Source: a virus | Taxonomy: Duplodnaviria > Heunggongvirae > Uroviricota > Caudoviricetes | Strand: one strand, 5' to 3' | DNA: 38,688 nucleotides | Virus record (IMG/VR): IMGVR_UViG_2703718837_000002 | Shown: positions 10,407 through 31,142 of the stretch, piece by piece | How the letters are laid out: each line of letters starts with the position of its first letter | Position numbering within the stretch: position 1 is the first letter of the stretch | Made by a program: the position numbers and the translations under genes | The notes under the pieces: model-generated | Databases searched by the model: none | What the model was told of the DNA's origin: nothing | What the model saw: only the letters and a program-made list of their open reading frames with translations

Positions 10407-10650
10407 ACTCCGGCAGCTCCGCCGACTTTCGACAATGAAGTTATCGCTGGCGGCGATAGTTTTCGACTCGATTTTCATGGCGGTATATGTGCTCAATGAG
10501 ACGTGGCCACTGGAACCGCTATTGTATGCCGGGCTTCGGCTGTGCCTGACATTTTTGAGCATGGCTGCGAGATTGATGCAACAGAAAGAAACCGCTTCAG
10601 ATTGTCCACGCCGCGCGGTGCGCAAATATATGGCACGCAGGCGAAGATGA
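10399..10650 (+). CDS. Small two-helix membrane protein (83 aa) coupled to lyz
   Basis: ATG overlaps the lyz stop region; two hydrophobic segments followed by an Arg-rich tail. Confidence 0.4.
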   Translation: MNKLRQLRRLSTMKLSLAAIVFDSIFMAVYVLNETWPLEPLLYAGLRLCLTFLSMAARLMQQKETASDCPRRAVRKYMARRRR

Positions 10651-10660
10651 TTTAACCATT

Positions 10661-10693
10661 ATTGCTCTAATAAATTTGATTTATTAGAGCAAA
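10661..10693 (+). promoter_or_regulatory. C1 operator, perfect 17-mer with an overlapping inverted partial copy
   Basis: ATTGCTCTAATAAATTT at 10661-10677, then TGATTTATTAGAGCAAA at 10677-10693. Confidence 0.75.
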
Positions 10694-10861
10694 TAACCTA
10701 CCATCGAACACGGCTCTATTGATCTCATCGTCGTTCAGGCTTATAGTTCCACCGTCGTAGCAAATTCTGCGACCAGGTTTGACAGCCTGAATACGAATGC
10801 GGACAACCGCAGATTTCCGATATTGCGGTATTTTTGTGTCCGTAAACCACGTTACGCCCGA

Positions 10862-10944
10862 ATTATGGTGGGGCGTGATGGGGAGGCTTCGGCCTGCTGG
10901 TTTCATTCGTGCCAGTCTGTCAACCCTGTCACGTCCTGCCACCT
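10862..10944 (+). ncRNA. c4-like antisense RNA (module A); boundaries approximate
   Basis: UUCG-capped hairpin at 10883-10896, then CATTCGT (10904-10910) and CTGTCAA (10917-10923), exactly complementary to ACGAATG and TTGACAG at the icd-like RBS (10946-10985) and at an upstream site (10778-10799). Confidence 0.5.
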
Positions 10945-10993
10945 GTTTGACAGCGGGTCGCAGGTTGTTAAACCTACGAATGAGGCCGTAACT

Positions 10994-11215
10994 ATGGTTA
11001 ATGCCAATCCTTGCGCACGCCCTGAATTTATCTGGCGCTTTTACTCCTGCCAGAAACGTCACTATCACTTCGTAATTGCACCGACAGAAGATGAGGCCCG
11101 CTCTCTGCTTCCTGACGCTCCCTGCATTTTCTCTGCCCGCTTTTCCACTGATTCGCGCAACTCTCTCAGTTACTGGTGCCTCCCTGTTAACGCTTCTGCT
11201 CAGGAGGGACTATGA
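10994..11215 (+). CDS. Icd-like small protein (73 aa)
   Basis: ATG at 10994 preceded by GAGG; ATGA overlap with the Ant-like gene; FIWRF...EDEAR..L...C.F.AR pattern resembles Icd-like proteins; the ORF track's longer 10823 start is rejected. Confidence 0.6.
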   Translation: MVNANPCARPEFIWRFYSCQKRHYHFVIAPTEDEARSLLPDAPCIFSARFSTDSRNSLSYWCLPVNASAQEGL

Positions 11216-12303
11216 GAACGTCATTAGTCACCCGTGAAGAAATGATTGAGGCAATTGAACAGCACACATCCTGTATCAGTACCAGGGATATACCGGGTGT
11301 TATTGCCAACTACTTCATGATCACCAAACAACTTTACCGGAGAAAGGACAAGAACGCGGTTCACCGCATTCTGTTGTCTGATATCCGCGAATACCTGCTC
11401 GAACAGGGTCGTCTTGATTATGCAACCGTAACCGCCGAAGCACGCAAGGAGGCACACAGGATGAAAGCAACTAATGTTAAATCAGAAAAAATTACCCTGC
11501 CTTCAGTTCAGGAATCCGAGCTGGTGGTTGTTCAGAATCAGTCTGATGAAATTCCCGTTCTGGAATGGCTGGGAGTGCGTGTCGTAACGACCGAAACTCT
11601 TGCTAGAGGGTATGGTACCGATGAAGCCAATATTCGTAAAAATTTGTCTCGCAACTCCGATCGCTTTGAAGAAGGCAAGCATTACTATCTCTTAACCGGT
11701 TCAAAGTTAAAGGAATTTAAAAGGCTAGTGACTATTAGTCACTTGGTTAGCAAATATACAAGTCAGGTAATTCTCTGGACAGAGCGCGGCGCTGCACGCA
11801 TGTCTAAGATCGTGGACACAAATGAAGCATGGGCATTCTTTGAAAAACTGGAAGACAGCTACTTCCGACAAAAAGAACAGCAACCGGTCTCAATTCCCCA
11901 GACGCTTCCAGAAGCTCTGCGCCTGGCTGCCGAGTTGGCAGAACAGAAAATGCAACTGGAACAACAGCTGGTGGCCGCAGCCCCTAAAGTCGATTTTGCC
12001 GACCGGGTATCAGTGGCTAAGGGGATCCTGATTGGAAATTTTGCAAAGGTTGTTGGACTTAAGCAAAACGCGCTGTTTGCCTGGTTACGGGAGAACGGCA
12101 TCCTGATTGCGTCCGGCGGACGTAAAAATGTACCGTTTCAGCAGTACATAAACGCCGGGTATTTCACGGTGAAAGAAGTGGTGCTGGATGATGAAGATGG
12201 CTACCAGATACGGTTGACGCCCCAGCTAACGGGGAAAGGCCAGCAGTGGCTGACGCGTAAACTGCTCGATGCAGGTTTATTAAAGCCTGTAGCGGCTGAG
12301 TGA
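11212..12303 (+). CDS. Ant-like antirepressor paralog A (363 aa), Bro-N/ORF6N-like centre and KilA-C/Ant-like C-terminus
   Basis: Translationally coupled to the icd-like ORF as in P1 immI; about 90 percent identical to paralogs B and C outside a divergent central patch. Confidence 0.7.
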   Translation: MRTSLVTREEMIEAIEQHTSCISTRDIPGVIANYFMITKQLYRRKDKNAVHRILLSDIREYLLEQGRLDYATVTAEARKEAHRMKATNVKSEKITLPSVQESELVVVQNQSDEIPVLEWLGVRVVTTETLARGYGTDEANIRKNLSRNSDRFEEGKHYYLLTGSKLKEFKRLVTISHLVSKYTSQVILWTERGAARMSKIVDTNEAWAFFEKLEDSYFRQKEQQPVSIPQTLPEALRLAAELAEQKMQLEQQLVAAAPKVDFADRVSVAKGILIGNFAKVVGLKQNALFAWLRENGILIASGGRKNVPFQQYINAGYFTVKEVVLDDEDGYQIRLTPQLTGKGQQWLTRKLLDAGLLKPVAAE

Positions 12304-22417: not shown

Positions 22418-22662
22418 AAAAGCGATACTACACAGTAAAGCATGGGACGCTACGAGCATTACAAGAGTTTGCTGACAAGCATAACGTTGAGGTGCGCAGG
22501 GAAGGGGGAAGTAAAGCTCTGCGCATGTACCGTCCGGACGGGAAATGGCGTACGGTCGTCGATTTCAAAACTAACAGTGTTCCCCAAGGCGTCCGCGATC
22601 GGGCATTCGAAGAATGGGAGCAGATCATCATAGATAACGCATTGCTCCTTAATGCTGATTAA
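22414..22662 (+). CDS. lxc: Lxc-like small protein (82 aa)
   Basis: ATGA overlap with ulx; by position and size. Confidence 0.45.
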   Translation: MKKRYYTVKHGTLRALQEFADKHNVEVRREGGSKALRMYRPDGKWRTVVDFKTNSVPQGVRDRAFEEWEQIIIDNALLLNAD

Positions 22663-22670
22663 TGGTTTTG

Positions 22671-22710
22671 TTTCCCGGTATCGTATTATACCGGGAAATA
22701 TCTTTTTATA
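22671..22710 (+). terminator. Intrinsic terminator closing darB-ulx-lxc
   Basis: Stem TTTCCCGGTAT/ATACCGGGAAA with 6-nt loop followed by TATCTTTTTATA. Confidence 0.65.
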
Positions 22711-23109
22711 TTAACCCGCGGCTGCAATTAGTGCCGACCCAACCGCCAGTGTGGTGACAAGGCCTATAATGACGACTGTAGCTGTTACCCCACCTGCAAC
22801 AGCTGCTCCAGTCTTTGTTTTGGATAACTCTTTCTTTTCTAGAGAAATGATTTCACCCATAGGAATAGACTGGTTGTTAATACCATTGATATATTGTGGG
22901 GTAACGTTCGATACTGTCATTTCACCTTCGCTACCTGATTTTAACTTGTATTTAATTAGGTCACCAGCATATATCGGTGGCTCTGTTAAATAATAGGTAC
23001 TTCTTTCAAGGTTTTTTTGCTTTATGTTAACTCCTTGATAAGACTGACATCCACATAACACAAGTGATAAAATTAGCGTCATCAGTAAATTTCTTTTATT
23101 TTTTATCAT
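22711..23109 (-). CDS. Small envelope protein (about 132 aa): signal peptide with LCGC lipobox-like motif, C-terminal Gly/Ala-rich membrane anchor
   Basis: Strong AAGGAGAAGGAG RBS 8 nt before ATG at 23109 (the track's GTG start at 23118 is less likely); low GC; ends on the lxc terminator. A TTGACA with an imperfect -10 lies upstream. Confidence 0.6.
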   Translation of the reverse strand: MIKNKRNLLMTLILSLVLCGCQSYQGVNIKQKNLERSTYYLTEPPIYAGDLIKYKLKSGSEGEMTVSNVTPQYINGINNQSIPMGEIISLEKKELSKTKTGAAVAGGVTATVVIIGLVTTLAVGSALIAAAG

Positions 23110-23243
23110 TGTCTGCACTCCTTCTCCTTTTCTTTGTATAGCTAAAACAAATCATTTATTCTTGTCAAATAGTTTTTAGTTTGAGAGTGAGGTTTACGTG
23201 ACGATGCTCTAAAAGTTGCAGATAGCGGTAAAGATAATTTTAT

Positions 23244-23912
23244 TTACAATATGTTACCTTTTCCGGTAAGTATACCTTGCGGTACTTTTCTTTCCCCCAT
23301 AAGTTGAGTGGCATGAATGATATTAATAAATGACATTAGTTGTGATGAACTCTGATTCACATTTATCTTTCCAGCCATTGCCCTGATGTAGTCAGCGCTG
23401 GCAACGTTGTTGTATTCCGTTGCGAAGCAGCATAACAACGTCAGAACGTGCTCTGTCGTTATTTCACTCCAGTTGATGTTGAAAAATTCATCGCCTTTTT
23501 TGTCGTGTTCGGAATCGAAGATGCTTTGGTGGAGGATATATTTGCCGGATTCCTTGCGCGGTAACTTTATCGCTTTCTGGCGTTCCAATTCCTTGTAAAT
23601 CTGCATTGCTTCAATCAGTACCGGTCTGCCGTTCATGAAGGGATCACGCAACCTTACACGCTGGCCAACTCGACCGGTAATAAAGCTGTTTTCCTCTTCC
23701 ACCAGCACGATAAAACCCTTTTCCTCTTTTTCTCGCAATTCGCGCAGCAGCTGGAGTTCCATATCGCGGCGGCGCTCAGGGTAGCTGGTCCGCTCAGCCA
23801 TTATCAGCTCATTGTTGATCCATGCAGCAGTCATTGACGCCGGTTTGCCGACGCTCATTGAAACAACGCATATTTTCTTATCCATAGCGCCCCTACAAAA
23901 AAGAAAAGCCAC
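23244..23912 (-). CDS. Hypothetical protein (213-222 aa) with a charged coiled-coil-like segment
   Basis: Maximal ORF; more likely start is MDKKICVV at 23885; no assignable domain; low GC. Confidence 0.5.
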   Translation of the reverse strand: MAFLFCRGAMDKKICVVSMSVGKPASMTAAWINNELIMAERTSYPERRRDMELQLLRELREKEEKGFIVLVEEENSFITGRVGQRVRLRDPFMNGRPVLIEAMQIYKELERQKAIKLPRKESGKYILHQSIFDSEHDKKGDEFFNINWSEITTEHVLTLLCCFATEYNNVASADYIRAMAGKINVNQSSSQLMSFINIIHATQLMGERKVPQGILTGKGNIL

Positions 23913-24161: not shown

Positions 24162-24346
24162 GATTTATTGAAACAAATAAACTACTATTGGACGCCAGAC
24201 TATTGATCTTCCTGTTGTTCAGGCTTATAGTTCCTACGTCATAGCAAATTCTGCGACCGGGTTTAGCAGCCTGAATGTACATGCGGACAACCGCAGATTT
24301 CCGATATTGCGGTATTTTTATGTCCGTAAAACCGCGTTACGCCCGA

Positions 24347-24429
24347 ATTATGGTGGGGCGTGATGGGGAGGCTTCGGCCTGCTGGTTTCATGTACGCCAG
24401 TCTGCTAACCCCGTCACGTCCTGCCACCT
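24347..24429 (+). ncRNA. c4-like antisense RNA (module B); boundaries approximate
   Basis: Same scaffold as A, but core elements CATGTAC (24389-24395) and CTGCTAA (24403-24409) complement GTACATG and TTAGCAG at the B target sites (24262-24283 and 24431-24470). Confidence 0.5.
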
Positions 24430-24478
24430 GTTTAGCAGCGGGTAGCAGGTTGTTAAACCTGTACATGAGGCCGTAACT

Positions 24479-24700
24479 ATGGTTAATGCCAATCCTTGCG
24501 CACGCCCTGAATTTATCTGGCGCTTCTATTCTTGTCAAAAACGTCACTATCACTTCGTTATCGCACCAACAGAAGATGAGGCACGTTCTCAGCTTCCGGA
24601 TGCTCCCTGCATTTTCTCCGCCCGCTTTTCTACCGATTCGCGCAATTCTCTCAGTTACTGGTGCCTCCCTGTTAACGCTTCGGCTCAGGAGGGGCTATGA
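24479..24700 (+). CDS. Icd-like small protein (73 aa)
   Basis: Paralog of the module A icd-like ORF; GAGG RBS overlapped by the antisense target. Confidence 0.6.
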   Translation: MVNANPCARPEFIWRFYSCQKRHYHFVIAPTEDEARSQLPDAPCIFSARFSTDSRNSLSYWCLPVNASAQEGL

Positions 24701-25809
24701 GAACGTCATTAGTCACCCGTGAAGAGATGATCGAGGCAATTGAACAGCACACTGCCTGTATCAGTACCAGGGATATACCAGGTGTTATTGCCAACTACTT
24801 CATGATCACCAAACAACTTTACCGGAGAAAGGACAAGAACGCGGTTCACCGCATTCTGCTAACCGATATCCGTGAATACCTGCTCGAACAGGGTCATCTG
24901 AATTATGCAACCGTCGCAGCCGAAGCACGCAAGGAGGCACACAGAATGAAAGCAACTAACGTTAAATCAGAAAAAATTCATGCACCTTCAGTTCAGGAAT
25001 CAGAGCTGGTGGTTGTTCAGAATCAGCCTGATGAAATTCCCGTTCTGGAATGGCAGGGAGTACGTGTCGTGACAACCGAAACTCTTGCTAGAGGGTATGG
25101 GACCGAAACTAATAACATCAAAGTTAACTATACGCGTAATGCTGATCGCTTTGAGGAAGGTAAACATTACTTTCTACTAACTGGTTCAAAATTAAAAGAA
25201 TTGAAGGACAAGGTTACTCAAAGTAACTTAGTCGCACCGCGAGCAAAGCACCTCACTCTCTGGACGGAACGCGGCGCAGCCCGCCACGCTAAAATGATCG
25301 AAACCGATCAGGCATGGGCATTCTTTGAAAAACTGGAAGACAGCTACTTCCGACAAAAAGAACAGCAACCGGTTGCAATCCCCCAGACGCTTCCAGAAGC
25401 CCTGCGCCTGGCTGCCGAACTGGCTGAACAAAAGCAACTTCTGGAACAGAAAGCCCACCAGCTAAATCAGCAGCTGGTGGCCGCAGCCCCCAAAGTCGAT
25501 TTTGCCGACCGGGTATCAGTGGCCAAGGGGATCCTGATTGGGAATTTTGCAAAGGTTGTTGGACTTAAGCAAAACGCGCTGTTTGCCTGGTTACGGGAGA
25601 ACGGCATCCTGATAGCGTCCGGCGGACGTAAAAATGTGCCGTTCCAGCAATACATCAACGCCGGGTATTTTTCTGTGAAAGAAGTGGTGCTGGATGATGA
25701 AGATGGCTATCAGATACGACTGACGCCCCAGTTAACGGGGAAAGGCCAGCAGTGGTTGACGCGTAAACTGCTCGATGCTGGCTTGTTAAAACCGGTGGCG
25801 GCTGAGTGA
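24697..25809 (+). CDS. Ant-like antirepressor paralog B (370 aa)
   Basis: ATGA-coupled to the icd-like ORF; Bro-N/KilA-C-like architecture. Confidence 0.7.
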   Translation: MRTSLVTREEMIEAIEQHTACISTRDIPGVIANYFMITKQLYRRKDKNAVHRILLTDIREYLLEQGHLNYATVAAEARKEAHRMKATNVKSEKIHAPSVQESELVVVQNQPDEIPVLEWQGVRVVTTETLARGYGTETNNIKVNYTRNADRFEEGKHYFLLTGSKLKELKDKVTQSNLVAPRAKHLTLWTERGAARHAKMIETDQAWAFFEKLEDSYFRQKEQQPVAIPQTLPEALRLAAELAEQKQLLEQKAHQLNQQLVAAAPKVDFADRVSVAKGILIGNFAKVVGLKQNALFAWLRENGILIASGGRKNVPFQQYINAGYFSVKEVVLDDEDGYQIRLTPQLTGKGQQWLTRKLLDAGLLKPVAAE

Positions 25810-25956
25810 TTAAAAAAGGCGGCCTTTCGGCCGCCAATGATGTCACGGAGTCTGTAATAGCAATGTCTTTGTAGTTGACTAATTATATAAATAAATTATA
25901 GCAATTATATGTGGTTTGCTTATCGGGAATCACATTTCCTCACTTCAGTACCTATG

Positions 25957-26043
25957 TGCTATACTCCTTTTTGATTGATTGATTGGATGCGGAACACAAA
26001 CCCGCTCTTTTGTGCAGCCTGGCTCCTTGCCAGGCTTTTTTTA
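25957..26043 (+). ncRNA. Candidate small RNA: extended -10 promoter to intrinsic terminator, about 70 nt
   Basis: TGcTATACT at 25957-25965; terminator stem GCCTGGC/GCCAGGC (26017-26035) plus T7; contains a TTGA x3 tract; 3' end overlaps the convergent 103-aa ORF stop. Confidence 0.3.
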
Positions 26044-26352
26044 TTTCATCATGGAAGCTGTTAACGCTTTGGACCTTGCTGAACTGATTGAAAGGACATT
26101 GTTAACCTTACCCAAGAGTTCGCCAAACTCAGACATCACTTTAGCAAAACCACGCCGTGCTTCTTCCTCGGTGGCATTCATCACGAAATGTTCAGCACTA
26201 CGCATACTTTTGACAGGGAACGCAACGGATATTGAGTCAATATCAGGCATTCTATCGCTCAGCTTTACAGTGACAATGACGGCTGGCGACTGAATATTAG
26301 TGCTTACAGACAGCACTACATATTTTACGTCGATGTTGAAATCCTTTCTCAT
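26041..26352 (-). CDS. Small protein (103 aa) downstream of cre
   Basis: ORF preceded by a C1 operator-like site; function unknown. Confidence 0.45.
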   Translation of the reverse strand: MRKDFNIDVKYVVLSVSTNIQSPAVIVTVKLSDRMPDIDSISVAFPVKSMRSAEHFVMNATEEEARRGFAKVMSEFGELLGKVNNVLSISSARSKALTASMMK

Positions 26353-26368
26353 ATGTCACCATAAATAT

Positions 26369-26385
26369 CAAATAATTAGAGCAAT
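26369..26385 (-). promoter_or_regulatory. C1 operator-like site (3 mismatches)
   Basis: CAAATAATTAGAGCAAT between the cre stop and the 103-aa ORF start. Confidence 0.35.
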
Positions 26386-26402
26386 CATTTGCACGTTAAA
26401 GG

Positions 26403-27434
26403 CTAATCGCCATCTTCCAGCAGGCGCACCATTGCCCCTGTTTCACTATCCAGGTTACGGATATAGTTCATGACAATATTTACGTTGGTCCAGCCACCAG
26501 CTTGCATGATCTCCGGTATTGAAACTCCGGCGCGGGCCATATCTCGCGCGGCTCCGACACGGGCACTGTGTCCAGACCAGGCCAGGTACCTCTGGCCAGA
26601 GTCATCCTTAGCCCCGTAAATCAATCGGTGAATTGCTTCAAAAATCCCTTCCAGGGCGCGAGTTGATAGCTGGCTGGTGGATGATGGCGCGGCAACACCA
26701 TTTTTTCTGACCCGGCAAAACAGGTAGTTATTCGGATCATCAGCTACACCAGAGACAGAAATCCATCGCTCGACCAGTTTAGTTACCCCCAGGCTAAGTG
26801 CCTTCTCTACACCTGCGGTGCTAACCAGCGTTTTCGTTCTGCCAATATGGATTAACATTCTCCCACCGTCAGTACGTGAGATATCTTTAACCCTGATCCT
26901 GGAAATTTCGGCTATACGTAACAGGGTGTTATAAGCAATCCCCAGAAATGCCAGATTACGTATATCCTGGCAGCGATCGCTATTTTCCATGAGTGAACGA
27001 ACCTGGTCGAAATCAGTGCGTTCGAACGCTAGTGCCTGTTTTGCACGTTCACCGGCATCAACGTTTTCTTTTCGGATCCGCCGCATGACCAGTGAAACAG
27101 CATTGCTGTCACTTGGTCGTGGCAGCCCGGACCGACGATGAAGCATGTTTAGCTGGCCCAAATGTTGCTGGATAGTTTTCACAGCCAGACCACGCGCCTG
27201 AAGATATAGAAGGTAATCGCGAACATCTTCAGGTTCTGCGGGAAACCATTTCCGGTTATTCAACTTGCACCATGCCGCCCACGACCGGCAAACGGACAGA
27301 AGCATTTTCCAGGTATGCTCAGAAAACGCCTGGCGATCCCTGAACATGTCCATCAGATTCTTGCGAGCCTCATCACTCGTTGCATCGACCGGTAATGCAG
27401 GCAAATTTTGGTGTACGGTCAGTAAATTGGACAT
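26403..27434 (-). CDS. cre: Cre site-specific tyrosine recombinase (343 aa)
   Basis: Near-identical over full length to Cre as I recall it, with about four substitutions; catalytic region ...RYLAWSGHSARVGAARDMARAG...; loxP 415 bp upstream. Confidence 0.97.
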   Translation of the reverse strand: MSNLLTVHQNLPALPVDATSDEARKNLMDMFRDRQAFSEHTWKMLLSVCRSWAAWCKLNNRKWFPAEPEDVRDYLLYLQARGLAVKTIQQHLGQLNMLHRRSGLPRPSDSNAVSLVMRRIRKENVDAGERAKQALAFERTDFDQVRSLMENSDRCQDIRNLAFLGIAYNTLLRIAEISRIRVKDISRTDGGRMLIHIGRTKTLVSTAGVEKALSLGVTKLVERWISVSGVADDPNNYLFCRVRKNGVAAPSSTSQLSTRALEGIFEAIHRLIYGAKDDSGQRYLAWSGHSARVGAARDMARAGVSIPEIMQAGGWTNVNIVMNYIRNLDSETGAMVRLLEDGD

Positions 27435-27441
27435 TTAACAC

Positions 27442-27663
27442 TCAGATAATGGTTTTAAGTAAAGTGTACAGGATCGGCTCTGCCTTTACCTGTTTATGGT
27501 TCTCGTCATAGAAACGCCAGCGACCGCGCGTGCGTTCTATTTTCTCTTCACCGCGCGATAATGACAGTTGACAACTATCACGATCAAACCCTTTTGCCCG
27601 CCAGTAACCACGGTTTTTCTCAAGCTCAATATGAGTGGACACTTTAGCAGCTGAATATCCCAT
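27442..27663 (-). CDS. Small ORF (73 aa) between loxP and cre; coding status uncertain
   Basis: Same strand as cre and immediately upstream; no recognisable motif. Confidence 0.25.
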   Translation of the reverse strand: MGYSAAKVSTHIELEKNRGYWRAKGFDRDSCQLSLSRGEEKIERTRGRWRFYDENHKQVKAEPILYTLLKTII

Positions 27664-27852
27664 TTTTCACCTCTGATTGATTGGTGGTGCTAAGTGCGCT
27701 ACGCGAAATCTGGAGCACTAACACTGCCAACATTTCGCAGATTTTACGTAGCGCAACCTTGATCAAATGATCAAGTGATCACTATTTGAGCTGATAAGGT
27801 ATTGAACTGTATGGATTTACAGGTAAATTAATTATGTTCAATAACCCTTAAT

Positions 27853-27886
27853 ATAACTTCGTATAATGTATGCTATACGAAGTTAT
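27853..27886. other. loxP: loxP recombination site
   Basis: Exact ATAACTTCGTATA-ATGTATGC-TATACGAAGTTAT. Confidence 0.98.
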
Positions 27887-29471: not shown

Positions 29472-30584
29472 TTATTCAGCCGCCACCGGTTTTAACAAGC
29501 CAGCATCGAGCAGTTTACGCGTCAACCACTGCTGGCCTTTACCCGTTAATTGGGGCGTCAGCCGTATCTGGTAGCCATTTTCATCATCCAGCACCACTTC
29601 TTTCACCGTGAAATACCCCGCGTTGATGTACTGCTGGAACGGCACATTTTTACGTCCACCGGACGCTATCAGGATGCCGTTCTCCCGTAACCAGACAAAC
29701 AGCGCGTTTTGCTTAAGTCCAACAACCTTTGCAAAATTCCCAATCAGGATCCCTTTAGCTACTGATACCCGGTCGGCAAAATCGACTTTAGGAGCGGCGG
29801 CCACCAGCTGCTGATTTAGCTGGTGGGCTTTCTGTTCCAGAAGTTGCTTTTGTTCAGCCAGCTCGGCAGCCAGACGCAGGGCTTCTGGAAGCGTCTGGGG
29901 GATTGCGATCGGTTGCTGTTCTTTTTGTCGGAAGTAGTTGTCTTCCAGTTTTTCAAAGAATGCCCATGCTTCATTTGTGTCCACGATCTTAGACATGCGT
30001 GCAGCGCCGCGCTCTGTCCAGAGTGTAAGGCTTCTGGCGTTCTTACCAACAGAGTAACTTCCGGTTACTCTGTTCTTAAATTCTCTTAATTTTAAACCAG
30101 TTAGAAGAAAGTAATGCTTACCTTCTTCAAAGCGGTCAAGGTTGCGAGACAAATTGTTGCGAATATTGGCTTCATCGACCCCATACCCTCTAGCAAGAGT
30201 TTCGGTTGTCACGACACGTACTCCCTGCCATTCCAGAACGGGAATTTCATCCGGCTGATTCTGAACAACCACCAGCTCTGATTCCTGAACTGAAGGTGCA
30301 TAAATTTTTTCTGATTTAACGTTAGTTGCTTTCATTCTGTGTGCCTCCTTGCGTGCTTCGGCTGCGACGGTTGCGTAATTCAGATGACCCTGTTCGAGCA
30401 GGTATTCACGGATATCGGTTAGCAGAATGCGGTGAACCGCGTGTTTGTCCTTTCTCCGGTAAAGTTGTTTGGTGATCATGAAGTAGTTGGCAATAACGCC
30501 CGGTATATCCTTGGTACTGATACAGGCAGTGTGCTGTTCAATTGCCTCGATCATCTCTTCACGGGTGACTAATGACGTTCTCAT
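29472..30584 (-). CDS. Ant-like antirepressor paralog C (370 aa)
   Basis: ATGA-coupled to the icd-like ORF; full-length paralog of A and B. Confidence 0.7.
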   Translation of the reverse strand: MRTSLVTREEMIEAIEQHTACISTKDIPGVIANYFMITKQLYRRKDKHAVHRILLTDIREYLLEQGHLNYATVAAEARKEAHRMKATNVKSEKIYAPSVQESELVVVQNQPDEIPVLEWQGVRVVTTETLARGYGVDEANIRNNLSRNLDRFEEGKHYFLLTGLKLREFKNRVTGSYSVGKNARSLTLWTERGAARMSKIVDTNEAWAFFEKLEDNYFRQKEQQPIAIPQTLPEALRLAAELAEQKQLLEQKAHQLNQQLVAAAPKVDFADRVSVAKGILIGNFAKVVGLKQNALFVWLRENGILIASGGRKNVPFQQYINAGYFTVKEVVLDDENGYQIRLTPQLTGKGQQWLTRKLLDAGLLKPVAAE

Positions 30585-30802
30585 AGTCCCTCCTGAGCAG
30601 AAGCGTTAACAGGGAGGCACCAGTAACTGAGAGAGTTGCGCGAATCAGTGGAAAAGCGGGCAGAGAAAATGCAGGGAGCGTCAGGAAGCTGAGAACGGGC
30701 CTCATCTTCTGTCGGTGCAATAACGAAGTGATAGTGACGTTTCTGGCAGGAATAGAAGCGCCAGATGAATTCAGGATGAGTTGGGGTAGGGACAGTAGCC
30801 AT
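30581..30802 (-). CDS. Icd-like small protein (73 aa) with a distinct N-terminus (MATVPTPTHPEFIW...)
   Basis: AAAGGAGG RBS; first nine residues differ from A and B, the rest is conserved. Confidence 0.6.
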   Translation of the reverse strand: MATVPTPTHPEFIWRFYSCQKRHYHFVIAPTEDEARSQLPDAPCIFSARFSTDSRNSLSYWCLPVNASAQEGL

Positions 30803-30857
30803 AATGGCAGCCTCCTTTGACTAAGTTAAGGAGCTACCGCGTGAGGTCTCAATCTCA

Positions 30858-30930
30858 ATGGCGGTAGCACTGACTGGGTTGAGACTACCGGCGTCAAAGG
30901 GAACCGGCCTGCCTTTCGGCAGCCCAGCCA
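30858..30930 (-). ncRNA. c4-like antisense RNA (module C); boundaries approximate
   Basis: Minus-strand GAAA-capped hairpin (30908-30925), then CCCTTTGAC (30893-30901) and GTCTCAA (30879-30885), complementary to GTCAAAGG(AGG) at the RBS (30811-30821) and TTGAGAC (within 30845-30859); the same two target motifs recur upstream at 31018-31044. Confidence 0.4.
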
Positions 30931-31142
30931 GCACTACCATTGATTTCGGAGCTAAACGCTACGTATGGCTGTGCGATGGCATGACACAAAAAAAAGACGC
31001 TTTCGGCGTCTGTGTCGCCTTTGACATTATTCGGGGTCTCAATCCCGGCACCCGTTTTAATGAGGTGCCTGATAAGCATAAACCGAAAATGCCTCAAGGC
31101 GCAAGAGGTCAGGTTCAATGTAACATCGGCAGTTAAAAAACA

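What the first reader, a model, noticed from the sequence alone, without database searches (positions are those of the whole stretch)
25957..26043. Compact promoter-to-terminator unit suggesting an unannotated small RNA
An extended -10 (TGcTATACT) lies about 60 nt upstream of a strong intrinsic terminator (7-bp GC stem plus T7). No ORF fits the interval, which contains a TTGATTGATTGATTGG tract. The 3' end overlaps the stop of the convergent 103-aa gene next to cre.
Basis: seen in the sequence. Interest (0 to 1): 0.45.

Follow-up and report, generated by a model that had tools for sequence, protein, structure and literature searches.

The report
Unannotated small RNA gene, P1 family
Between the c8 gene (next to cre) and the old ref promoter of this P1-like phage-plasmid lies a compact, highly conserved promoter-to-terminator unit that most likely makes a ~70-nt regulatory RNA; no database or paper searched describes it, and no transcript data could be checked.

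Summary
At 25957-26042 (+) an extended -10 (TGcTATACT) is followed 51 nt later by an 8-bp hairpin plus T7. No plausible ORF fits the interval.

- **Context:** the window is a P1-like phage-plasmid, and the unit sits between c8 and the ref promoter/operator.
- **Not annotated:** it is absent from the P1 GenBank records, from Rfam, and from every paper searched.
- **Prevalence:** it occurs in 695 of 5,426 complete E. coli genomes and in about 230 fetched P1-like loci. It is always next to c8, whether the other neighbour is ref or, as here, a c4-icd-ant cassette.
- **Conservation:** it is the least variable part of a variable intergenic region. The -10 block and both stems are essentially invariant. 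Changes fall in the spacer, the loops and the T-run length.
- **Orientation:** the terminator works on the + strand only, and in P1 no + strand gene lies upstream of it.

Best reading: a σ70-transcribed, intrinsically terminated sRNA.

Its first 10 nt (GAUUGAUUGG) are complementary to CCAAUCAAUC. That word occurs 5 times in P1 against 0.35 expected. It abuts the Shine-Dalgarno of cra (in the window) and of a conserved 28-aa membrane-peptide ORF upstream of pmgT.

The RNA would also be antisense to any c8 read-through, as λ OOP is to cII. Expression and targets are untested, and no covariation was found.

The parts
25937..25942 (+). Weak -35-like hexamer. It reads TCCTCA in the window and TTTTCA in most relatives, 17 bp upstream of the -10.
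   Evidence: Column counts. In P1 the scan reports TTTTCA-17-TATACT with TG.
25957..25965 (+). Extended -10 element TGcTATACT.
   Evidence: Sequence. The block 25955-25966 is invariant in 67 distinct relatives. TGnTATACT is kept in 124 of 128 loci.
25973..26042 (+). Predicted transcript of about 70 nt. The +1 at G25973 is inferred from its position 7 nt after the -10. The 3' end is placed in the T-run.
   Evidence: Inference from promoter geometry. Fold -23.2 kcal/mol, z = -3.1. Nucleotide diversity 0.014-0.06 against 0.09-0.21 in the adjacent intergenic DNA.
25973..25989 (+). Predicted single-stranded 5' seed GAUUGAUUGAUUGGAUG. The window has three UUGA units; nearly all relatives have two.
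   Evidence: Unpaired in the MFE and consensus folds. GATTGATTG is invariant and the second G of GG is variable (G/U/A).
25989..26005 (+). Hairpin 1: stem GCGG/CCGC with a 9-10 nt loop.
   Evidence: RNAalifold consensus. Loop changes and a 1-nt loop insertion are tolerated. One G-C to G·U change is accompanied by an added G-C pair (L254).
26006..26015 (+). U-rich linker UCUUUUGUGC between the two hairpins. It is a possible Hfq-binding module.
   Evidence: Sequence. The Hfq role is inferred from published features of Hfq-dependent sRNAs and was not tested.
26016..26042 (+). Intrinsic terminator: 8-bp stem, 5-nt loop, T7 run.
   Evidence: Terminator scan, + strand only. The stem never varies in 16 variants. 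The loop varies in 3 lineages and the T-run is 5-9 long.
26041..26352 (-). c8 ('lysogeny establishment protein', 103 aa), convergent with the unit. Its stop codon lies under the T-run.
   Evidence: ORF list. P1 annotation. Homologues occur only in P1-like elements.
27674..27684 (-). Candidate target site CCAAUCAAUCA. It abuts the cra Shine-Dalgarno (GAGG 27673-27670); the cra ATG is at 27663-27661.
   Evidence: The site is identical in P1 and in more than 60 relatives. Net cofold gain is -10.5 kcal/mol.
25881..25909 (-). Divergent ref-type promoter P2ref (-10 TATAAT at 25886..25881) with a C1-operator-like sequence ATTGCTATAATTTATTT (25909..25893). In this window the operator also reads as TGCTATAAT.
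   Evidence: Alignment to the annotated P1 features. Motif search.
25812..25835 (-). Homologue of the ref leader 'attenuator': GGCGGCC-GAAA-GGCCGCC plus T6. It is the only good terminator on the c8-sense strand downstream of c8, and it is retained although ref is absent.
   Evidence: Terminator scans. Alignments. Fold of the 232-nt c8-sense stretch.

Best explanation
The unit is an independent gene for a small non-coding RNA of about 70 nt (about 66 nt in P1 itself), conserved throughout the P1 family of phage-plasmids.

The inferred steps are as follows.

1. σ70 RNA polymerase starts at the extended -10 promoter, at about G25973.
2. Transcription stops at the hairpin plus U-run, whose end lies over the c8 stop codon.
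3. The RNA has the layout of a classical enterobacterial base-pairing sRNA: an unstructured 5' end, a small hairpin, a U-rich linker, and a terminator hairpin with a poly-U tail.
4. I propose that the 5' end (GAUUGAUUGG...) pairs with CCAAUCAAUC(A) sites lying directly 5' of Shine-Dalgarno sequences and lowers their translation.

The candidate sites are cra, the first gene of the cra-cre transcript (inside this window), and a conserved C1-controlled 28-aa membrane-peptide ORF upstream of pmgT (in P1 relatives, outside this window).

Because c8 lacks a terminator of its own, the RNA is also fully complementary to any c8 transcript that reads on. Some cis-antisense effect on c8 would then come in addition.

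Shown by sequence: the elements, their conservation and the complementarity. Inferred: transcription, the +1 position, Hfq involvement and regulation of the targets.
For: **Anatomy.** The elements are present and the RNA folds well. In P1 the promoter passes the generic scan: TTTTCA-17-TGcTATACT.

**No competing annotation or coding.**

**Distribution.**
- 697 plasmids.
- 695 of 5,426 complete E. coli genomes.
- 18 phage records.
- 45 metagenome contigs.

**Gene-like conservation.**
- TGTGCTATACTC is invariant. The spacer and discriminator vary. The body is fixed from about +1.
- Substitutions are confined to the loops and the T-run length.
- Diversity is 0.014-0.03 with the c8-anchored set and 0.04-0.06 with the unbiased cre-anchored set.
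- This compares with 0.09-0.21 for the neighbouring ref promoter region and up to 0.17 within c8.

**Independence from ref.** The unit stays next to c8 when ref is replaced by a c4-icd-ant cassette, in 16 loci including the window and two E. albertii plasmids.

**Terminator orientation.** It is unidirectional for the + strand. In P1 the 1.7 kb upstream on that strand holds no gene, since ref and mat are on the other strand.

**Targets.**
- CCAATCAATC occurs 5 times in P1 against 0.35 expected.
- It lies 0-1 nt 5' of the SD at both cra and the 28-aa ORF. Only 5 of 3,000 shuffled words have any SD-adjacent occurrence.
- In most relatives the 28-aa ORF site extends to 13 perfect pairs, or 16 with G·U.
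- That ORF varies mostly by synonymous changes. It survives as a stand-alone operator-hairpin-site-SD-ORF-terminator unit when pmgT is replaced. SJ46 annotates it as 'membrane protein'.
- Net cofold gain is -10 to -18 kcal/mol.
Against: - No transcript evidence of any kind was available.
- There is no compensatory covariation in the stems. The RNAalifold covariation term is 0 and no pair changes on both sides.
- There is no covariation between seed and targets. In E. albertii plasmids and a few other lineages the seed GG is GU or GA while the cra, 28-aa ORF and pmgS sites are unchanged.
- By duplex energy alone the cra site is unremarkable. It ranks about 7th in the window and 2nd-3rd in P1 for a 13-nt seed.
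- The window's -35 is poor, and four relatives have lost the TG of the extended -10.
- The shared motif CCAATCAATCA...GAAAA(T)ATG could instead be a protein-binding or translation-enhancing element.
- The family is narrow (88-100% identity), so conservation partly reflects recent common ancestry.
Confidence: 0.45

Rival explanations
1. The RNA is real but works mainly in cis, as λ OOP does. It is convergent with c8, so it acts as antisense RNA and/or by transcriptional interference on c8 transcripts that read past the c8 stop. That would destabilise c8 mRNA through RNase III cleavage of the duplex. In P1 it would also insulate the toxic, C1-repressed ref gene from constitutive cre/c8 read-through. 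On this view the seed matches elsewhere are incidental.
For: - On the c8-sense strand the hairpin is preceded by an A-run and followed by UGCACAAAAG. It is not called as a terminator there.
- The next good terminator on that strand is the ref attenuator about 210 nt further on. A c8 3'UTR would therefore contain a perfect ~70-nt complement of the RNA.
- The unit is always linked to c8, never found apart from it.
- c8 is annotated as 'establishment of lysogeny, putative'. This parallels λ cII and OOP (established knowledge).
Against: - The overlap with the c8 coding sequence is only 2-3 nt, against about 50 nt for OOP and cII.
- c8 read-through is inferred, not shown.
- Pure antisense or interference function does not require the near-invariance of the 5' single-stranded sequence. 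It also does not explain the enrichment of its complement next to two Shine-Dalgarno sites.
Confidence: 0.25
2. There is no functional RNA. The hairpin plus T-run is only a terminator or insulator protecting c8 and cre from antisense transcription. In this window it would also terminate the ant cassette. The TGcTATACT is a fortuitous or vestigial -10. Conservation then reflects DNA-level constraints or recent common descent.
For: - In the window the 370-aa ant gene (24697-25809, +) has no + strand terminator before 26016, so the hairpin probably does terminate it.
- TGNTATAMT is not over-represented in the window.
- No covariation was found.
- The family is shallow, at 88-100% identity.
Against: - In P1 and about 97 other loci the upstream neighbour is ref on the opposite strand. 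There is then nothing for the terminator to terminate except the short unit.
- A terminator alone does not explain the invariance of the -10 block and of the 45 nt between it and the hairpin, given that DNA 20-120 nt further upstream is 3-10 times more variable.
Confidence: 0.2
3. The conserved block is part of ref regulation. It would be an upstream element of the divergent P2ref promoter, or the 'antiterminator' component implied by the title of Windle, Laufer & Hays 1988. It would act on the ref leader attenuator.
For: - The unit lies inside the 256-bp fragment (P1 1808-2063, M23246) sequenced in that ref study. The paper's title speaks of 'attenuator-antiterminator control' (reference list seen).
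- The two promoters are back-to-back, about 55 bp apart.
Against: - The unit is equally conserved where ref has been replaced by an ant cassette.
- No convincing seed-type pairing with the ref leader was found. The cofold gain is -7.2 kcal/mol, the weakest of the RNAs tested, and it does not engage the attenuator stem.
- The 1988 paper could not be read, so what it showed for this stretch is unknown to me.
Confidence: 0.07
4. The interval encodes a small protein.
For: TTG-initiated ORFs of 29 and 34 aa start at 25975 and 25983.
Against: - They have no Shine-Dalgarno and no ATG or GTG start.
- Both frames run through the terminator and into c8 antisense.
- The 4-nt (TTGA) copy-number difference and the 5-9 T-run polymorphism shift or alter the frames among relatives.
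Confidence: 0.02

Closest known systems
λ OOP RNA (antisense to the 3' end of cII)
   Same: It is a short (77 nt) phage RNA with its own σ70 promoter and an intrinsic terminator. It is convergent with, and overlaps the end of, a lysogeny-establishment gene. It sits in the immunity-adjacent part of a temperate phage genome.
   Different: OOP overlaps about 50 nt of cII coding sequence, whereas here only the stop codon is covered. Overlap with c8 mRNA depends on unproven read-through. There is no sequence or Rfam relationship. RNase III dependence was not tested.
P1 C4 RNA, P22 Sar and IsrK (phage immunity RNAs controlling antirepressor operons)
   Same: They are small phage-encoded RNAs that repress translation by pairing next to ribosome-binding sites. 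C4 is found in the same genome, with three copies in this window.
   Different: C4 is processed from the very operon it controls and pairs through two loop sequences (a'/b') with a2/b2. This unit has its own promoter and terminator and a linear 5' seed. It has no similarity to RF01695, RF03163 or RF01394.
Hfq-dependent enterobacterial sRNAs with 5'-terminal seeds (e.g. RybB, OmrA/B)
   Same: The layout matches: a single-stranded 5' seed starting at +1, an internal hairpin, a U-rich stretch directly before a GC-rich terminator hairpin, and a tail of 7 or more U. The predicted target sites lie at or just 5' of the SD.
   Different: There is no homology to any Rfam family. The best sub-threshold hits (SorX 21 bits against a gathering score of 46.6, Hrs12, GadY) reflect only the generic terminator shape. 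Hfq binding is untested. The RNA is phage-plasmid-borne, not a core-genome gene.
Trans-encoded type I antitoxin RNAs (IstR-1/tisB, OhsC/shoB)
   Same: In both cases a small RNA is predicted to pair in the 5' leader of an mRNA for a roughly 28-aa hydrophobic peptide. That mRNA is also under repressor control: C1 here, LexA for tisB.
   Different: The candidate peptide gene is about 12 kb from the RNA gene, not adjacent or overlapping, and its toxicity is unknown. The pairing is 13-16 nt next to the SD rather than at a standby site. The peptide gene is not in this window.

Membership tests
Stand-alone intrinsically terminated bacterial sRNA gene | σ70-type promoter upstream of a short non-coding interval | tested here: met
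   TGcTATACT at 25957-65. In P1 the scan reports TTTTCA-17-TATACT with TG, 9/12. The -10 block is invariant. Activity was not measured.
Stand-alone intrinsically terminated bacterial sRNA gene | Rho-independent terminator on the same strand, 50-300 nt downstream | tested here: met
   Hairpin 26016-26036 plus T7, called on the + strand only. The same holds in P1.
Stand-alone intrinsically terminated bacterial sRNA gene | No conserved ORF in the interval | tested here: met
   Frame-shifting indels occur among relatives.
Stand-alone intrinsically terminated bacterial sRNA gene | A discrete transcript of the predicted size | not testable with these tools
   No expression data are accessible. Literature searches found none.
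Any Rfam family (release 15) | Score at or above the family's gathering threshold | tested here: not met
   No hit at 25957-26043 at gathering thresholds. The best permissive hits are 15-21 bits against thresholds of 45-90.
Structured RNA supported by covariation | Compensatory base changes in the predicted helices | tested here: inconclusive
   There are 12 pairs and none changes on both sides. The covariation score equals that of the shuffles. The stems simply do not vary, and the variation lies in the loops.
Hfq-dependent base-pairing sRNA | 3' poly-U tail of at least 6 U after a terminator hairpin, preceded by a U-rich single-stranded stretch | tested here: met
   T7 here, 5-9 in relatives, and UCUUUUGUGC directly 5' of the hairpin.
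Hfq-dependent base-pairing sRNA | Hfq binding and Hfq-dependent stability or regulation | not testable with these tools
   The only P1/Δhfq transcriptome found works at annotated-gene level and does not mention this RNA.
Hfq-dependent base-pairing sRNA | Conserved seed complementary to target translation-initiation regions | tested here: inconclusive
   The seed complement is enriched (5 against 0.35) and abuts two SDs. However, there is no seed/target covariation, and the second G of the seed varies without a change in the targets.
OOP-like cis-antisense RNA | Convergent overlap with the 3' part of the target gene's mRNA | tested here: inconclusive
   The overlap with the c8 ORF is 2-3 nt only. 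Full overlap requires c8 read-through. That is suggested by the lack of a c8-sense terminator before 25835 but is not shown.
Type I toxin-antitoxin (RNA antitoxin) | Small hydrophobic toxin ORF adjacent to or overlapping the RNA gene | tested here: not met
   No such ORF lies next to the unit. The candidate 28-aa ORF is about 12 kb away in P1 and is absent from the window.

The most novel reading that the evidence does not exclude
P1-family phage-plasmids carry a previously unrecognised trans-acting sRNA next to c8. Through its 5' end it would repress translation of cra (and so of cra-cre transcripts) and of a C1-controlled 28-aa membrane peptide. That would be a second, post-transcriptional layer of lysogenic control acting on a possible toxin- or lysis-type peptide. 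The classical c8 'establishment of lysogeny' phenotype, assigned to the 103-aa ORF only putatively, could then owe something to this RNA or to its antisense action on c8.
Probability: 0.25. Interest if true: 0.65.

Novelty: new member of a known kind. Interest (0 to 1): 0.5.

Why it matters
P1 is a founding model of temperate-phage biology and the source of Cre-lox. P1-like phage-plasmids are carried by about one in eight completely sequenced E. coli and often carry resistance genes.

Its known regulatory RNAs are C4 and the kilA antisense RNA. A further conserved sRNA beside cre/c8 would add a regulator to the immC-proximal region. It would give testable targets (cra-cre, a small C1-controlled membrane peptide, c8 itself).

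It would also explain why this stretch is more conserved than the protein gene next to it. In practical terms, constructs and deletions made around cre, c8 and ref may have been removing or carrying an active RNA gene without anyone knowing.

It is not a new kind of mechanism, so without expression data the finding is of moderate interest.

Tried and rejected
- **Rfam.** The whole window at gathering thresholds and the locus at E ≤ 10 gave only sub-threshold, terminator-shaped hits.
- **tRNA/tmRNA.** None found.
- **Distant relatives through C8.** The protein has only relatives of 77% identity or more and no Pfam or NCBIfam family. The genome-contig scan gave 3 close loci. Deep comparative analysis was therefore impossible.
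- **Covariation.** None was found in the stems or between seed and targets.
- **Energy-only target ranking.** With a 24-nt query the scan was dominated by chance GC-rich hits. With a 13-17-nt seed the cra site is not exceptional by energy. The argument therefore rests on exact-word enrichment and SD adjacency.
- **Low-complexity check.** Period-4 9-mers as a class are not enriched in P1 (166 observed against 190 simulated). CAATCAATC, however, is the most frequent one.
- **Pairing with the ref leader.** This antiterminator idea gave the weakest interaction.
- **Anchor bias.** The first diversity profile used an anchor adjacent to the unit. Repeating it with a cre anchor 400 nt away gave a shallower but still clear minimum. 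An intermediate attempt found no usable loci.
- **Literature.** Four full-text searches found no description of an RNA here. Łobocka 2004, Windle 1988 and Lu 1989 are not held.
- **Homologues of the 28-aa ORF.** The peptide is too short for the large protein search. tblastn found it only in P1-like phages.
- **Host targets.** These could not be scanned with the tools available.

Full report
**Context**

The window is a P1-like phage-plasmid, read in the opposite orientation to the P1 map. Positions 25812-27869 match P1 2069-1 at 96%.
- cre is at 26403-27434 (-).
- The 103-aa ORF next to it (26041-26352, -) is c8, annotated 'establishment of lysogeny, putative'.

In P1 the 250 bp after c8 carry, on the c8-sense strand, the ref promoters, the C1 operator Oref and then ref. 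In this window the ref coding sequence has been replaced by a c4-icd-ant cassette on the + strand (24201-25799). The ref promoter/operator and the terminator-like ref leader hairpin (25835..25818 plus T6, - strand) are still there.

**The observation**

All the elements are as described:
- TGcTATACT at 25957-25965.
- TTGATTGATTGATTGG at 25971-25986.
- A hairpin at 26016-26036 (8 pairs, 6 G-C, loop of 5), followed by T7 at 26036-42.

The scan calls the terminator on the + strand only. On the c8-sense strand the same hairpin is preceded by the A-run and followed by UGCACAAAAG, which is not a terminator. The c8 stop codon (26041-26043) lies under the T-run.

The only + strand ORFs are TTG-initiated, lack an SD and run through the terminator. 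There is no tRNA.

The -10 motif by itself is not statistically remarkable: 2 occurrences in the window against 1.96 expected. Both copies, however, lie in this one intergenic region and point away from each other. The window's -35 is poor (TCCTCA). Most relatives have TTTTCA at 17 bp, and in P1 the generic promoter scan picks the site up with the TG flag. The predicted RNA (25972-26043) folds at -23.2 kcal/mol, z = -3.1.

**Is it known?**

I found no record of it.
- No Rfam family reaches threshold here, although the same search finds three C4 RNAs, two a1b1 elements and an IsrK-like RNA elsewhere in the window.
- At E ≤ 10 only generic terminator-shaped hits of 15-21 bits appear.
- The densely annotated P1 records (535 features, including promoters, operators, C4 and the kilA antisense start) have nothing on this strand between c8 and P2ref.
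- RefSeq genomes annotate only the c8 CDS under the match.
- Four full-text literature searches found no P1 RNA at this place.
- A recent P1vir/Δhfq transcriptome analyses annotated genes only.
- The classical ref papers and the P1 genome paper are not held. I know only the title of Windle et al. [quoted passage not shown]

**Distribution and conservation**

The 111-bp unit is present at 88-96% identity in:
- 697 plasmids.
- 18 phage records.
- 695 of 5,426 complete E. coli genomes, of which 692 places are on plasmids.
- 45 metagenome contigs.

In 128 loci with enough flank it is always next to c8. The other neighbour is ref in about 97 loci and the end of an ant gene in 16, including two E. 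albertii plasmids organised like the window. The unit therefore does not depend on ref.

Among 67 distinct IMG/VR sequences, TGTGCTATACTC is invariant. The region 10-50 nt upstream of it and the discriminator are polymorphic. The body from about +1 is fixed apart from the hairpin-1 loop, the terminator loop, one linker position and the T-run length of 5-9.

| Region | Nucleotide diversity, c8-anchored set | Nucleotide diversity, cre-anchored set |
|---|---|---|
| The unit | 0.014-0.03 | 0.04-0.06 |
| ref promoter/attenuator region | 0.08-0.18 | 0.09-0.21 |
| c8 | 0.04-0.16 | 0.03-0.17 |

The first profile's anchor abutted the unit. I therefore repeated it with an anchor in cre, 400 nt away. 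The minimum persists but is shallower, and the figures for the unit include one locus that lacks it.

The consensus fold has two helices: GCGG/CCGC, and the 8-bp terminator stem. The terminator stem never varies, although its loop does in three lineages. Hairpin 1 tolerates loop substitutions and a loop insertion. One lineage turns a G-C pair into G·U while gaining an extra G-C pair. There is not a single double-sided change, so covariation is uninformative.

**Why a gene rather than a bare terminator**

- In P1 and most relatives the + strand (P1 minus strand) has no gene for 1.7 kb upstream of this strong unidirectional terminator. ref and mat lie on the other strand. The only transcript it could stop is one that starts at the adjacent -10.
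- The 45 nt between the -10 and the hairpin are as conserved as the hairpin itself. The DNA just upstream of the promoter is several-fold more variable.
- In the window the terminator probably also serves the ant cassette, which has no + strand terminator of its own. That is a secondary use, specific to this arrangement.

**How it might act: the trans model**

With +1 at the G seven nucleotides after the -10, the P1 RNA begins GAUUGAUUGGAUG. The window's copy has one more UUGA. This end is unpaired in all folds.

Its complement CCAATCAATC occurs five times in P1 against 0.35 expected from shuffles:
- Once as the antisense of the gene itself.
- At 186-195, ending one base before the cra Shine-Dalgarno (CCAATCAATCAGAGGTGAAAAATG).
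- At 84367-84376, one base before the SD of an ORF not annotated in P1 (CCAATCAATCACAGGAGCTGAAAATATG).
- In codons 7-10 of pmgS.
- Once antisense within dbn.

Only 211 strict SD-spacer-ATG motifs exist in P1 on both strands. Of 3,000 shuffles of the word, 5 have any occurrence next to one of them. The real word has two independent ones.

The cra site is in the window (27684..27674, -) and is identical in P1 and in more than 60 relatives.

The unannotated ORF encodes 28 hydrophobic residues, MNTAFKIIMAAIYFWLFSITFGGIVAHG.
- It lies downstream of the C1 operator OpmgT and a strong 5' hairpin.
- Its variation among relatives is mostly synonymous.
- It is retained as a self-contained operator-hairpin-site-SD-ORF-terminator unit where pmgT has been replaced by an hsd cluster.
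- It is called 'membrane protein' in phage SJ46.
- In most relatives its site reads AUCCAAUCAAUCA: 13 perfect pairs with the RNA, or 16 with two G·U pairs.

Co-folding gives net gains of -10 to -18 kcal/mol for these RNAs.

The layout (5' seed, hairpin, U-rich linker, terminator hairpin, poly-U tail) is that of Hfq-dependent sRNAs. That comparison rests on established knowledge and was not tested.

**How it might act: the cis model**

The first good terminator after c8 on its own strand is the ref attenuator. c8 transcripts may therefore run through the whole unit, and the RNA would be perfectly complementary to their 3' UTR.

This is the λ OOP/cII arrangement, and c8, like cII, is a lysogeny-establishment gene. 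The overlap with the coding sequence, however, is only the stop codon. In P1 this would also help to keep constitutive cre/c8 transcription out of the C1-repressed, toxic ref gene (Ref toxicity: PMC4713147).

**Weaknesses**

- There are no expression data.
- There is no covariation in the structure or between seed and targets.
  - The second G of the seed is U or A in six loci, including the E. albertii plasmids.
  - The cra, pmgS and 28-aa-ORF sites were checked in the E. albertii plasmids and are unchanged there.
- By energy alone the cra site is not outstanding.
- The motif shared by the sites could serve something other than RNA pairing.
- The family is shallow, so part of the conservation is simply recent ancestry.
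- Four loci have lost the TG of the extended -10.

**Verdict**

| Claim | My estimate |
|---|---|
| A discrete RNA is made from this unit | about 0.75 |
| Full best explanation (RNA made and its main action is seed pairing at the cra and 28-aa-ORF ribosome-binding sites) | 0.45 |
| The RNA acts chiefly as a c8 antisense/insulator | 0.25 |
| No functional RNA | 0.2 |

It is a new member of a known kind (phage-encoded regulatory sRNA). Its interest is moderate because it sits in a classic model phage and makes specific, cheap experiments possible.

Noticed in passing
window 10650-12293 (+), 24201-25799 (+), 29482-31068 (-): There are three separate immI-like cassettes (C4 antisense RNA with or without a1b1 targets, icd-like ORF, ant antirepressor) within 38.7 kb. 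One replaces ref. One sits beside c1 and is accompanied by an IsrK-like RNA (30990-31068). P1 has a single immI. E. albertii plasmids share the ref-replacing and c1-adjacent copies.
   Followed up: partly
window 25812-25909 (-): The ref promoter P2ref, a C1-operator-like sequence and the ref leader 'attenuator' hairpin plus T6 are retained although ref itself is gone. This leaves a second, C1-controlled promoter-to-terminator mini-unit of about 60 nt on the minus strand, divergent from the finding. There is a sub-threshold isrD hit (24 bits against 37). In the window the operator variant ATTGCTATAAT also reads as an extended -10.
   Followed up: partly
P1 84392-84478 (L088 34392-34478); L235 15122..15036 (-); not in the window: A conserved 28-aa hydrophobic ORF (MNTAFKIIMAAIYFWLFSITFGGIVAHG) lies downstream of the C1 operator OpmgT and a strong 5' hairpin. 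It is unannotated in the P1 reference and by PGAP but is called 'membrane protein' in SJ46. An 84-bp fragment of it also occurs next to hsdR/IS1 in F-type conjugative plasmids.
   Followed up: partly
window 27690-27753 (-): The cra 5' leader contains a long imperfect inverted repeat (GCGCTACGTAAAATCTG ... CAGATTTCGCGTAGCGC) directly upstream of the CCAATCAATCA site. The 28-aa ORF leader has the same hairpin-then-site-then-SD layout.
   Followed up: no
window 22662-23370: The type III restriction-modification genes res/mod of P1 (P1 3.5-9.7 kb) are absent. The window passes from the lxc side (P1 9750) to mat (P1 3342) through about 700 bp with no match to P1.
   Followed up: no
L069 and L259 (IMG/VR contigs), immediately 5' of TGTGCTATACT: Two relatives have foreign DNA joined 0-8 nt upstream of the extended -10. 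In one case the junction is a Tn21/Tn1721-type terminal inverted repeat. This replaces the -35 region but leaves the -10 and the RNA body intact. One other contig is a cloning-vector chimera that truncates the unit.
   Followed up: no
window 26081-26106 (-), inside c8: The c8 mRNA itself contains a second, imperfect match to the RNA's 5' end (UCCUUUCAAUCAG; -17 kcal/mol in the window, -13.8 in P1), about 40-60 nt before its stop codon.
   Followed up: no
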